A DNA stretch of 64,000 bases from Escherichia coli (GTDB lineage: Bacteria; Pseudomonadota; Gammaproteobacteria; Enterobacterales; Enterobacteriaceae). The position numbers were made by a program. The first letter of the stretch is position 1. Each line of letters opens with the position of its first letter. Shown one piece after another: positions 42,874-45,787 of the stretch. Location: NCBI RefSeq assembly GCF_016026235.1, contig NZ_CP065613.1; one strand, written 5' to 3'.

Positions 42874-45787
42874 AATTCTTCTCTCAATAAAATATCCACA
42901 GCGACGCGATGCGTTATTGCTGGTTTTTGTTGTCTCTGACAAACTCTTGTAAACAGAGTTATCCACAGCCTCAGGCTGTAATCTTAATTTCAAAGAAACT
43001 TCGCACGGTGAATAGTATTTTTTTAACCTATTGATAGATAAGTTAAAAATTAAGATTTCGTTTTGTCGAGTCGATCACTTGACGATTTTATTCGTCTTGA
43101 ATTGCAATGCGTTTTTATTTTTATTCACAAGCTGTGGATGAATCAGGCGTCACGCGGTAACCCTTTTTCAATTACCCGAACCAGACGCTGTTTTTTCGGC
43201 AATTGCACTTCGACTATGCACGCATTTCGCCTCTCGATTTGCTGCGCCATCGCCCACGCTATGTGCTCATCAAGAAGTGGGTGCTCACCTTTGCGACTCT
43301 CCAGCGCCGCCAGAATCGTTTCATCCCAGGGCGCATTGCCTAATGCCACGGCGATATTACGCAGCCAGCGCAGGTGACCTATACGGCGAATCGCCGAACC
43401 TTCCGTGACTTTTAAAAACTTCTCTTCGCTCCAGGCGAATAACTCAATGAGTTCCGGTGCGTGTAGCGGCTTACGCGGGCTGAAATCGTCTTCTGTAGTG
43501 AGTTGTGAATAGCGATTCCACGGGCAGATAAGCTGGCAGTCATCGCAACCGTAAATACGGTTTCCCATTAACGGTCGCAACTCTTCCGGGATCGCCCCTT
43601 CCAGTTCGATGGTGAGATAAGAGATACAGCGGCGAGCATCGACGGTATATGGCTCGACGATGGCACCGGTCGGGCAAATCGTCATACAGGCCACGCATTT
43701 GCCGCATCCTTCCTCGACTGGTTGATCCACGGGCAGCGGAATATCGACCAGCAATTCGCCTAAAAAGAAGAACGAACCGGCCTCGCGATTGAGGATAAGT
43801 GAGTGCTTACCTGTCCAGCCGAGCCCAGCTTTTTCAGCTAACGGGCGCTCGAGAATAGGCGCAGAATCGACAAACGGTCTAAAATTCAGCGAAACACAAT
43901 GTTGCTGAATCATCTCGCCCAGCTTTTTGAGTCGGTTGCGCAGAAGTTTGTGATAGTCACGGCCCAGCGCATAACGGCTAACATAGCCGAGTTTGGGGTT
44001 TTTCAGCGTGCTGGCAAATGCGGCGTTAGCAGGAAGGTAATTCATCCGCACGCTGATCACGCGCAGCGTACCGGGCAATAACTCATGAGGGCGAGCGCGC
44101 AGCATACCGTGACGTGCCATCCAGTCCATTTCGCCGTGGTATTGTTTGTCCAGCCATGCTTGCAGTTTGGGCTCGGACTCGCTGAGATCGGTATCGGTAA
44201 TACCTACCTGCTGAAAGCCCAGTTCCAGCCCCCACTGTTTAATTTTTTGCGCTAACTGATTGAGATCGAGGGGCTCTGACATGACGGACCATACAATGAA
44301 GAAAAACCCCGTAAGTATACCACACACCGTCTGGTACGCCGACGATATCCGCCGCGGAGAACGCGAGGCGGCAGATGTGCTGGGGCTCACACTCTATGAG
44401 CTGATGCTTCGCGCTGGCGAGGCCGCATTCCAGGTGTGTCGTTCGGCGTATCCTGACGCCCGCCACTGGCTGGTGCTGTGCGGTCATGGTAATAACGGCG
44501 GCGATGGCTACGTGGTCGCGCGACTGGCCAAAGCGGTCGGCATTGAGGTCACGTTGTTGGCCCAGGAGAGCGACAAACCGTTGCCGGAAGAGGCCGCGCT
44601 GGCACGCGAAGCATGGTTAAACGCGGGTGGCGAGATCCATGCTTCGAATATTGTCTGGCCCGAATCGGTAGATCTGATTGTTGATGCGCTGCTCGGTACC
44701 GGTTTGCGGCAAGCGCCCCGCGAATCCATTAGCCAGTTAATCGACCACGCTAATTCCCATCCTGCGCCGATTGTGGCGGTTGATATCCCTTCCGGCCTGC
44801 TGGCTGAAACTGGCGCTACGCCAGGCGCGGTGATCAACGCCGATCACACCATCACTTTTATTGCGCTGAAACCAGGCTTGCTCACTGGAAAAGCGCGGGA
44901 TGTTACCGGACAACTGCATTTTGACTCACTGGGGCTGGATAGTTGGCTGGCAGGTCAGGAGACGAAAATTCAGCGGTTTTCGGCAGAACAACTTTCTCAC
45001 TGGCTAAAACCGCGTCGCCCGACTTCGCATAAAGGCGATCACGGGCGGCTGGTAATTATCGGTGGCGATCACGGCACGGCGGGGGCTATTCGTATGACGG
45101 GGGAAGCGGCGCTGCGTGCTGGTGCTGGTTTAGTCCGAGTACTGACCCGCAGTGAAAACATTGCGCCGCTGCTGACTGCACGACCGGAATTGATGGTGCA
45201 TGAACTGACGATGGACTCTCTTACCGAAAGCCTGGAATGGGCCGATGTGGTGGTGATTGGTCCCGGTCTGGGCCAGCAAGAGTGGGGGAAAAAAGCCCTG
45301 CAAAAAGTTGAGAATTTTCGCAAACCGATGTTGTGGGATGCCGATGCATTGAACCTGCTGGCAATCAATCCCGATAAGCGTCACAATCGCGTGATCACGC
45401 CGCATCCTGGCGAGGCCGCACGGTTGTTAGGCTGTTCCGTCGCTGAAATTGAAAGTGACCGCTTACATTGCGCCCAACGTCTGGTACAACGTTATGGCGG
45501 CGTAGCGGTGCTGAAAGGTGCCGGAACCGTGGTCGCCGCCCATCCTGACGCTTTAGGCATTATTGATGCCGGAAATGCAGGCATGGCGAGCGGCGGCATG
45601 GGCGATGTGCTCTCTGGTATTATTGGCGCATTGCTTGGGCAAAAACTGTCGCCGTATGATGCAGCCTGTGCAGGCTGTGTCGCGCACGGTGCGGCAGCTG
45701 ACGTACTGGCGGCGCGTTTTGGAACGCGCGGGATGCTGGCAACCGATCTCTTTTCCACGCTACAGCGTATTGTTAACCCGGAAGTGA

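What the first reader, a model, noticed from the sequence alone, without database searches (positions are those of the whole stretch)
44280..44283. queG and nnr appear to start on opposite strands from overlapping start codons (CATG)
With the start assignments that give the expected protein lengths, the nnr ATG is 44281-44283 on the plus strand and the queG ATG is 44282-44280 on the minus strand, so the two divergent genes share the palindrome CATG. Both promoters and ribosome-binding sites must then lie inside the other gene's coding sequence, an unusually compact divergent arrangement that implies constrained or coupled regulation.
Basis: inference. Interest (0 to 1): 0.25.

Follow-up and report, generated by a model that had tools for sequence, protein, structure and literature searches.

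The report
queG and nnr share overlapping start codons
Two unrelated E. coli housekeeping genes on opposite strands really do begin inside the same four bases (CATG), each carrying the other's expression signals in its coding sequence; this is already in the reference annotation and in published transcript maps, so it is tidy rather than new.

Summary
CATG sits at 44280-44283. It gives nnr an ATG at 44281-44283 (+) and queG an ATG at 44282-44280 (-). This is the same 2-nt overlap annotated in E. coli K-12 MG1655 (b4166/b4167) and by PGAP.

The starts are well supported by comparison. The CATG junction is kept in 33 of 33 Enterobacterales genomes where the genes are adjacent, and in two outgroups. 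In many genomes it is the only possible start for either gene. The alternative nnr Met6 codon (44296) is start-capable in only 18 of 33.

The nnr operon TSS lies 388 nt inside queG (window 43893). The queG TSS lies 24 nt inside nnr (44306). The 413-nt transcript overlap was recovered as dsRNA by two methods, and a 2025 paper lists the pair as a "divergent excludon".

New here is the reciprocal synonymous-site constraint. queG codons 1-12 carry the nnr Shine-Dalgarno (SD) sequence. nnr codons 12-14 (AGT ATA CCA) spell queG's extended -10, TGgTATACT, and remnants of that element persist upstream of queG where nnr has moved or been lost.

Coupled regulation remains untested, and no N-terminal protein data could be retrieved.

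Verdict: real, conserved, already known; modest interest.

The parts
44280..44283 (.). CATG: overlapping start codons (nnr ATG 44281-44283 on +, queG ATG 44282-44280 on -)
   Evidence: All four bases are invariant in 33 Enterobacterales genomes.
43143..44282 (-). queG CDS (epoxyqueuosine reductase, 379 aa)
   Evidence: TIGR00276, 510 bits. Residue 6 aligns to residue 2 of native B. subtilis QueG in PDB 5d08. The ATG is the sole candidate start in at least 14 genomes.
44281..45828 (+). nnr CDS (NAD(P)HX epimerase/dehydratase, 515 aa)
   Evidence: PRK10565, 1029 bits, aligned from residue 1. The ATG is the sole candidate start in at least 9 genomes.
44268..44273 (+). nnr Shine-Dalgarno sequence GAGGGG, encoded by queG codons 3-5 on the other strand
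   Evidence: -7.2 kcal/mol duplex with the anti-SD, ending 6-7 nt before the ATG. queG codons 1-12 are the most synonymously constrained windows in the gene: top 5 of 372.
43893..44280 (+). nnr operon 5' leader (388 nt), fully antisense to the queG 5' coding region
   Evidence: Conway et al. promoter at U00096.2 4391701, as quoted in the Huang et al. 2020 supplement; coordinate conversion.
43880..43885 (+). -10 element TAAAAT of the nnr operon promoter, inside queG codons 133-135 (AAT TTT AGA)
   Evidence: It lies 7 nt upstream of the mapped TSS. The rare Arg codon AGA supplies the first T and is used in 20 of 33 genomes. Codon windows 126-128 rank 7th-9th of 372 for synonymous constraint.
44283..44306 (-). 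queG 5' leader (24 nt, U-rich, no SD), inside nnr codons 1-9
   Evidence: Overlap end at 4392114 in the Conway map. The best anti-SD duplex is only -2.7 kcal/mol. The first 90 nt of the mRNA fold less stably than 196 of 200 shuffles.
44314..44322 (-). queG extended -10 promoter TGgTATACT, which is nnr codons 12-14 (AGT ATA CCA) on the plus strand
   Evidence: It lies 7 nt upstream of the mapped TSS. Codon choice is 100% fixed in 33 genomes. TGnTAnnnT occurs upstream of queG in 84% of 77 loci against 0-4% in controls. It falls inside the 31 bp removed by the delta-PqueG primer of PMC10950094.
43946..44301 (.). p19-captured dsRNA cluster S-361 (the Lybecker dsRNA MS-212 maps to 43909-44292)
   Evidence: coordinate conversion.
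44296..44298 (+). Alternative in-frame ATG (nnr Met6), probably not the main start
   Evidence: Weak SD (-3.2 kcal/mol). Start-capable codon in only 18 of 33 genomes.

Best explanation
queG and nnr are two real, divergently transcribed genes whose ATG start codons overlap by two bases. Each gene's expression signals are written into the other's coding sequence.

- nnr is translated from ATG 44281 using an SD sequence (GAGGGG) spelled by queG codons 3-5. It is transcribed from a promoter about 388 nt upstream, inside queG codons ~130-135, and possibly also by read-through from further upstream.
- queG is transcribed from an extended -10 promoter (TGgTATACT) spelled by nnr codons 12-14. This gives a 24-nt, U-rich, unstructured leader without an SD, and translation starts at ATG 44282.
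- The two mRNAs are therefore complementary over about 413 nt and form dsRNA in vivo.

Shown: the sequence, the annotation, the conservation, the synonymous-site constraint, and the published transcript ends and dsRNA. Inferred: that the conserved motifs are the functional SD and -10, that queG initiation is SD-independent, and that nnr uses Met1 rather than Met6.

The tight arrangement is old. Other gammaproteobacteria have spacers of -2 to about 100 nt. The queG -10 survives upstream of queG as a remnant of the nnr 5' end where nnr has moved or been lost.
For: - Sequence and annotation.
- Conservation: the CATG junction is kept in 33 of 33 Enterobacterales loci and two outgroups, and it is the sole candidate start in many genomes.
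- SD energies: -7.2 kcal/mol for nnr Met1, -3.2 for Met6, -2.7 for queG.
- Published ends: nnr operon TSS at window 43893, queG transcript start at 44306, 413-nt overlap. dsRNA recovered by p19 capture and by dsRNA immunoprecipitation. Listed as a divergent excludon.
- Promoter location: the delta-PqueG primer design removes 44312-44342.
- Synonymous constraint: queG codons 1-12 score 0.83-0.92 against a gene mean of 0.63, the top 5 of 372 windows. nnr codons 12-14 are 100% fixed as AGT, ATA or TTA, and CCA, including rare codons.
- The -10 motif: present upstream of queG in 84% of 77 loci against 0-4% in controls, and in 68% of the 28 loci where nnr is not adjacent.
- Relocated nnr genes keep Leu-Pro, but the codons drift to TTG CCT, TTG CCG, TTA CCT and TTA CCG.
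- The QueG fold begins at about residue 6.
- The queG 5' end is unusually unstructured, z = +1.87.
Against: - No N-terminal peptide or initiation-profiling data for either protein could be retrieved.
- Two of the three bases of nnr's ATG are fixed by queG's ATG anyway, so conservation of the CATG alone is weak evidence for nnr Met1.
- One MAG (L020) has a 1-nt insertion that forces nnr to start at the Met6 equivalent, so the first five residues are dispensable.
- The TSS positions come from one RNA-seq-based operon map, quoted second-hand in another paper's supplement, and were not confirmed here by dRNA-seq.
- The consensus promoter scan found nothing in 43900-44700. Its rule needs 9 of 12 matches across both hexamers and ignores the TG extension; the nnr -10 lies outside the scanned range.
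- Leu-Pro persists in relocated nnr genes, so part of the motif's conservation is at the protein level.
Confidence: 0.85

Rival explanations
1. In E. coli, Nnr is actually translated from Met6 (ATG 44296). The upstream ATG in the CATG is unused, so the two coding sequences do not overlap and are separated by 13 nt.
For: ATG 44296 is in frame and present in E. coli and close relatives. Residues 1-5 lie outside the conserved domain: TIGR00197 starts at residue 17. L020 apparently uses the Met6 equivalent. Conservation of the AT of nnr's ATG is explained by queG's own start codon.
Against: Position 6 is start-capable in only 18 of 33 genomes and is CTG, GAG, AAG and others elsewhere. The strong SD is correctly spaced for 44281, not 44296 (-7.2 against -3.2 kcal/mol). 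Codons 2-4 (ACG GAC CAT) are 96-100% fixed and the frame stays open from Met1 in every genome but L020. The curated PRK10565 profile aligns from residue 1.
Confidence: 0.1
2. Both nnr ATGs (Met1 and Met6) are used, giving two Nnr isoforms. The overlap exists, but only for part of the protein pool.
For: There are two in-frame ATGs 15 nt apart in Escherichia and Citrobacter. Closely spaced alternative starts are known from Ribo-RET studies (abstract listed).
Against: Met6 is not conserved and has a poor SD. No data support a second isoform.
Confidence: 0.1
3. The overlap is a start-codon misannotation of queG, as is typical of divergent overlaps in databases. On this view queG starts further downstream.
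For: All divergent overlaps longer than 60 bp examined by Palleja et al. 2008 were 5'-extension misannotations. queG has no SD.
Against: The next canonical in-frame start would delete conserved residues. The TIGR00276 profile begins at residue 14, and the fold aligns to B. subtilis QueG from residue 6. ATG 44282 is invariant and is the only candidate in at least 14 genomes. The overlap is 2 nt, not a long extension.
Confidence: 0.02

Closest known systems
Divergent excludon / 5'-overlapping divergent operons (ExcludonFinder, NAR 2025, PMC12288877; Conway et al. 2014, PMC4161252; Huang et al. 2020, PMC7373196)
   Same: queG-nnr is explicitly listed among the 16 divergent excludons of E. coli MG1655. 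The 5' transcript overlap is 413 nt, and dsRNA was recovered by p19 capture and by dsRNA immunoprecipitation.
   Different: Most listed excludons overlap only in their UTRs, across an intergenic region averaging 95 nt. Here there is no intergenic region at all and the start codons themselves overlap. Mutually exclusive expression, the functional hallmark, has not been shown for this pair.
Short head-to-head (divergent) CDS overlaps in prokaryotic annotations (Palleja et al. 2008, PMC2478687; Lillo and Krakauer 2007, PMC2174442)
   Same: The genes are on opposite strands and overlap at their 5' ends. This is the rarest class, about 1% of well-characterised overlaps.
   Different: Long divergent overlaps were all misannotations. 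This one is 2 nt, is conserved across an order of bacteria, and both starts are supported by comparison.
Extended -10 (TGn) sigma-70 promoters embedded in coding sequence
   Same: TGgTATACT lies 7 nt upstream of the mapped queG 5' end with no recognisable -35. This is the classical architecture of an extended -10 promoter (general knowledge).
   Different: It doubles as nnr codons 12-14 and fixes their codon choice. No functional test of the element was found: the delta-PqueG strain exists, but queG expression was not reported in the passages read.

Membership tests
Divergent (head-to-head) overlapping gene pair | Two protein-coding genes on opposite strands whose 5' coding ends share nucleotides | tested here: met
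   Both ORFs start within CATG 44280-44283. The reference annotation is the same. The starts are supported by conservation and by being the only candidates in many genomes.
Divergent (head-to-head) overlapping gene pair | Both start codons verified at the protein or ribosome level | not testable with these tools
   No N-terminomics or TIS-profiling entries for nnr or queG were found in the datasets held.
Divergent excludon | Transcripts of divergent neighbouring genes overlap in their 5' regions | tested here: met
   Published coordinates, converted to the window, give an overlap of 43893-44306, 413 nt. The pair is listed in the ExcludonFinder table.
Divergent excludon | The overlapping RNAs form dsRNA that is processed by RNase III | tested here: met
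Divergent excludon | Mutually exclusive or antagonistic expression of the two genes | not tested
   No expression-dependence data were found, and this cannot be computed from sequence.
QueG (TIGR00276) and Nnr (PRK10565) equivalogs | Full-length match above the curated cut-off | tested here: met
   QueG 510 bits (cut-off 200); Nnr 1029 bits (cut-off 703).
Extended -10 sigma-70 promoter (for queG) | A TG dinucleotide one base upstream of a -10 hexamer that is correctly spaced from a mapped TSS | tested here: met
   TGgTATACT at 44322-44314, with 7 nt to the TSS at 44306. The motif is conserved in 84% of 77 loci against 0-4% in controls.
Leaderless mRNA (considered for queG because it lacks an SD) | The TSS coincides with the A of the start codon | tested here: not met
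   The published 5' end at 44306 leaves a 24-nt leader.

The most novel reading that the evidence does not exclude
The queG extended -10 promoter has been embedded in the 5' end of nnr since before the Enterobacterales diverged from other gammaproteobacteria. It dictates the sequence of part of the Nnr N-terminus: the Ser-Leu/Ile-Pro-His/Gln motif, with codons fixed as AGT, TTA or ATA, and CCA. The ~413-nt sense/antisense overlap also works as a true excludon, so that transcription of the nnr-tsaE-amiB-mutL-miaA-hfq superoperon and of queG antagonise each other through RNase III cleavage or polymerase collision. This would link a tRNA-modification gene to the hfq/mutL region.
Probability: 0.25. 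Interest if true: 0.45.

Novelty: already known. Interest (0 to 1): 0.22.

Why it matters
This is a clean, well-supported example of the rarest class of bacterial gene overlap. In most database cases of that class, misannotation is the explanation. It shows how promoters and ribosome-binding sites can sit inside a neighbour's coding sequence and leave a measurable mark: fixed synonymous codons, rare codons, and promoter remnants that outlast loss of the neighbouring gene.

In practice, deletions or recoding near the 5' end of either gene will disturb the other. Anyone making queG or nnr knockouts, or interpreting their phenotypes, should take this into account, for example with nnr::kan insertions used as 'neutral' markers. 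It adds no new biology beyond what the annotation and the transcript and dsRNA maps already contain.

Tried and rejected
- Leaderless queG mRNA. I suspected TATGGT just upstream of the ATG was a -10. Rejected: the published 5' end leaves a 24-nt leader, and the conserved -10 is further upstream.
- Upstream TTG 44260 as the nnr start. Rejected: it is followed by TAA in L018 and L019, is absent in many genomes, and has no SD.
- A structured RNA or riboswitch in the 388-nt nnr leader. There was no Rfam match at E <= 1.
- The consensus promoter/terminator scan found nothing in 43900-44700. It requires 9 of 12 matches across both hexamers, so it would miss an extended -10 promoter. The nnr -10 lies outside the scanned range.
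- Direct start-site evidence. TRAINSPOTTER supplements have no entries, the Ribo-RET preprint and Saito 2020 supplements are not held, the only INRI-seq hit is an off-target table, and Thomason 2015 is not held.
- Supplements of the ExcludonFinder and Conway papers are not held.
- The junction-duplication model for Pectobacteriaceae is significant for Brenneria (0 of 500 shuffles) but not for Pectobacterium (59 of 500). My first attempt was invalid because the two segments physically overlapped.
- I did not count divergent overlaps genome-wide in E. coli, because it would have needed too many annotation calls. I relied on the literature frequencies instead.

Full report
**1. What is in the sequence**

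Window 44280-44283 reads CATG. The plus-strand ATG at 44281-44283 opens a 515-aa ORF. The minus-strand ATG at 44282-44280 opens a 379-aa ORF.

The ORFs are Nnr (NCBIfam PRK10565, 1029 bits, aligned from residue 1) and QueG (TIGR00276, 510 bits). The window is E. coli chromosome: the 601 nt around the site occur in 5425 of 5426 complete E. coli genomes.

The K-12 MG1655 reference annotates queG at 4392928..4394067 (-) and nnr at 4394066..4395613 (+). That is the same 2-nt overlap, and PGAP annotates it too. The alternative it calls "M13 at 44296" is Met6 of the annotated protein.

**2. Are the two starts real?**

I fetched 80 queG loci from one genome per species and located both genes in each.

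- In all 33 Enterobacterales loci where the genes are adjacent, queG residue 1 and nnr residue 1 map to the same CATG. These run from Escherichia through Citrobacter, Enterobacter, Pantoea, Serratia, Yersinia, Rahnella, Hafnia and Budvicia to Edwardsiella. The same is true in Tolumonas (L079) and in a gammaproteobacterial MAG (L073).
- The AT of nnr's ATG is fixed by queG's ATG, so the CATG alone is weak evidence for nnr. The independent evidence for nnr Met1 is fourfold:
  - The frame stays open from that ATG through a variable segment in every genome except one MAG.
  - In at least 9 genomes it is the only in-frame ATG, GTG or TTG.
  - A strong SD sequence (GAGGGG, -7.2 kcal/mol) ends 6-7 nt upstream. 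Met6 has only -3.2 kcal/mol, and the upstream TTG at 44260 has none.
  - Codon 6 is start-capable in only 18 of 33 genomes.
- For queG, the ATG is the sole candidate in at least 14 genomes. The protein aligns to native B. subtilis QueG (PDB 5d08) from residue 6, so a downstream start would truncate the fold.
- L020 has a 1-nt insertion that forces nnr to start at the Met6 equivalent. This shows that the first five residues are dispensable.
- I could not retrieve N-terminal proteomics or initiation-profiling data for either gene.

**3. Where the expression signals are**

The supplement of Huang et al. 2020 (PMC7373196) gives, in U00096.2 coordinates:

| Feature | U00096.2 | Window |
|---|---|---|
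| Conway et al. overlap region (413 nt) | 4391701-4392114 | 43893-44306 |
| Plus-strand yjeF operon promoter | 4391701 | 43893 |
| Lybecker dsRNA MS-212 | 4391717-4392100 | 43909-44292 |
| p19-captured dsRNA cluster S-361 | 4391754-4392109 | 43946-44301 |

I calibrated the offset on three reads from that supplement and on the annotated junction: window = coordinate - 4347808.

- The nnr operon TSS at 43893 lies 388 nt inside queG, 7 nt after TAAAAT.
- The queG transcript start at 44306 lies 24 nt inside nnr, 7 nt after TGgTATACT, an extended -10 with no recognisable -35.
- The delta-PqueG primer in PMC10950094 removes 44312-44342, which contains that element. The deleted interval is my reading of the primer sequence.
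- The queG leader is U-rich and has no SD (-2.7 kcal/mol).
- The first 90 nt of the queG mRNA fold less stably than 196 of 200 shuffles. This fits SD-independent initiation on an open leader, which is an inference.
- No Rfam family matches the region.

**4. Marks of dual use**

I used codon-aware alignments of 33 genomes.

- In queG, the five most synonymously constrained 8-codon windows out of 372 start at codons 1-5. Their codon identity is 0.83-0.92 against a gene mean of 0.63. This is the stretch that carries the nnr SD and translation-initiation region.
- Windows starting at queG codons 126-128 rank 7th to 9th. They cover the nnr promoter, where the rare Arg codon AGA supplies the first T of TAAAAT in 20 of 33 genomes.
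- In nnr, codons 2-4 are 96-100% fixed.
- In nnr codons 12-14, all 31 Ser are AGT, all 20 Ile are the rare ATA, all 13 Leu are TTA and all 30 Pro are CCA. Together these spell TGGTA(T/A)ACT on the queG strand.
- The 32-nt core at 44262-44293 averages 91% per-site identity, against 82% in the adjacent queG coding sequence.

**5. Evolution of the arrangement**

- Other gammaproteobacteria with adjacent queG and nnr have spacers of -2 to about 100 nt, usually too short for two promoters.
- TGnTAnnnT occurs within 90 nt upstream of queG in 84% of 77 loci, against 0-4% in control windows. It occurs in 68% of the 28 loci where nnr is not adjacent. In those loci queG often faces tsaE-amiB instead.
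- In Pectobacterium, Brenneria, Photorhabdus and Xenorhabdus, a decayed nnr 5' remnant carrying the -10 remains about 40 nt upstream of queG.
- Relocated nnr genes keep Leu-Pro, but with drifting codons: TTG CCT, TTG CCG, TTA CCT and TTA CCG. The nucleotide-level constraint therefore belongs to queG's promoter. Some protein-level constraint on Leu-Pro also exists.
- A duplication of the junction may have separated the genes in Brenneria (0 of 500 shuffles reach the observed score). The signal is not significant in Pectobacterium (59 of 500).

**6. Comparison with what is known**

- Divergent overlaps are the rarest class, about 1% of well-characterised overlaps. All of those longer than 60 bp were misannotations.
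- This 2-nt case is real, but it is already annotated.
- Its transcript overlap is in the Conway map, and its dsRNA is in two datasets.
- ExcludonFinder (2025) lists queG-nnr among 16 divergent excludons, and lists yjeV-queG-nnr as a non-contiguous operon.
- Mutual regulation has not been tested.

**7. Verdict**

The finding itself is already known.

What this analysis adds is the breadth of conservation, the reciprocal synonymous-site constraint, and the promoter remnants. Interest is modest.

Noticed in passing
window 45800-45828: nnr and tsaE overlap by 29 nt on the same strand: the tsaE ATG is at 45800 and nnr ends at 45828. The last ~15 nnr codons (windows starting at codons 501-508) are the most synonymously constrained part of nnr, more so than the queG-promoter region.
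   Followed up: partly
window ~43107-43160 (yjeV) against the queG 3' end at 43143: The 17-aa ORF yjeV annotated in K-12 overlaps the 3' end of queG convergently by about 18 nt. The literature places the datA DnaA-inactivating locus and read-through transcription from glyVXY here. ExcludonFinder lists yjeV-queG as a convergent excludon and yjeV-queG-nnr as a non-contiguous operon.
   Followed up: partly
window 42575-42873: Three tandem tRNA-Gly(GCC) genes (glyV, glyX, glyY). The mechanical ORF list shows several spurious repeat-containing ORFs across them.
   Followed up: yes
L020:2486-2503: A soil MAG has a 1-nt insertion after nnr codon 4 (catagaaATG). nnr can then only start at the Met6 equivalent, although the CATG is kept for queG. 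This is either a natural variant or an assembly error.
   Followed up: partly
L036:1441-2322 (minus strand): In Pectobacterium zantedeschiae, a 293-aa ORF with no NCBIfam match has been inserted between queG and nnr, on the nnr strand.
   Followed up: partly
L037, L041, L049, L051 and other Vibrio, Photorhabdus, Xenorhabdus and Moritella loci, ~1800-2330 (minus strand): In these lineages nnr is missing from the cluster and queG faces a ~154-aa ORF followed by a longer amiB-sized one. The ORF was confirmed as TsaE in L037 and L051 only. So the divergent pairing of queG with the tsaE-amiB region outlasts nnr itself.
   Followed up: partly
window 44264-44267: A GATC (Dam) site lies within the conserved nnr SD region (GAGATCGAGGGG) and is retained in nearly all the Enterobacterales loci examined. 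I did not assess whether methylation matters.
   Followed up: no
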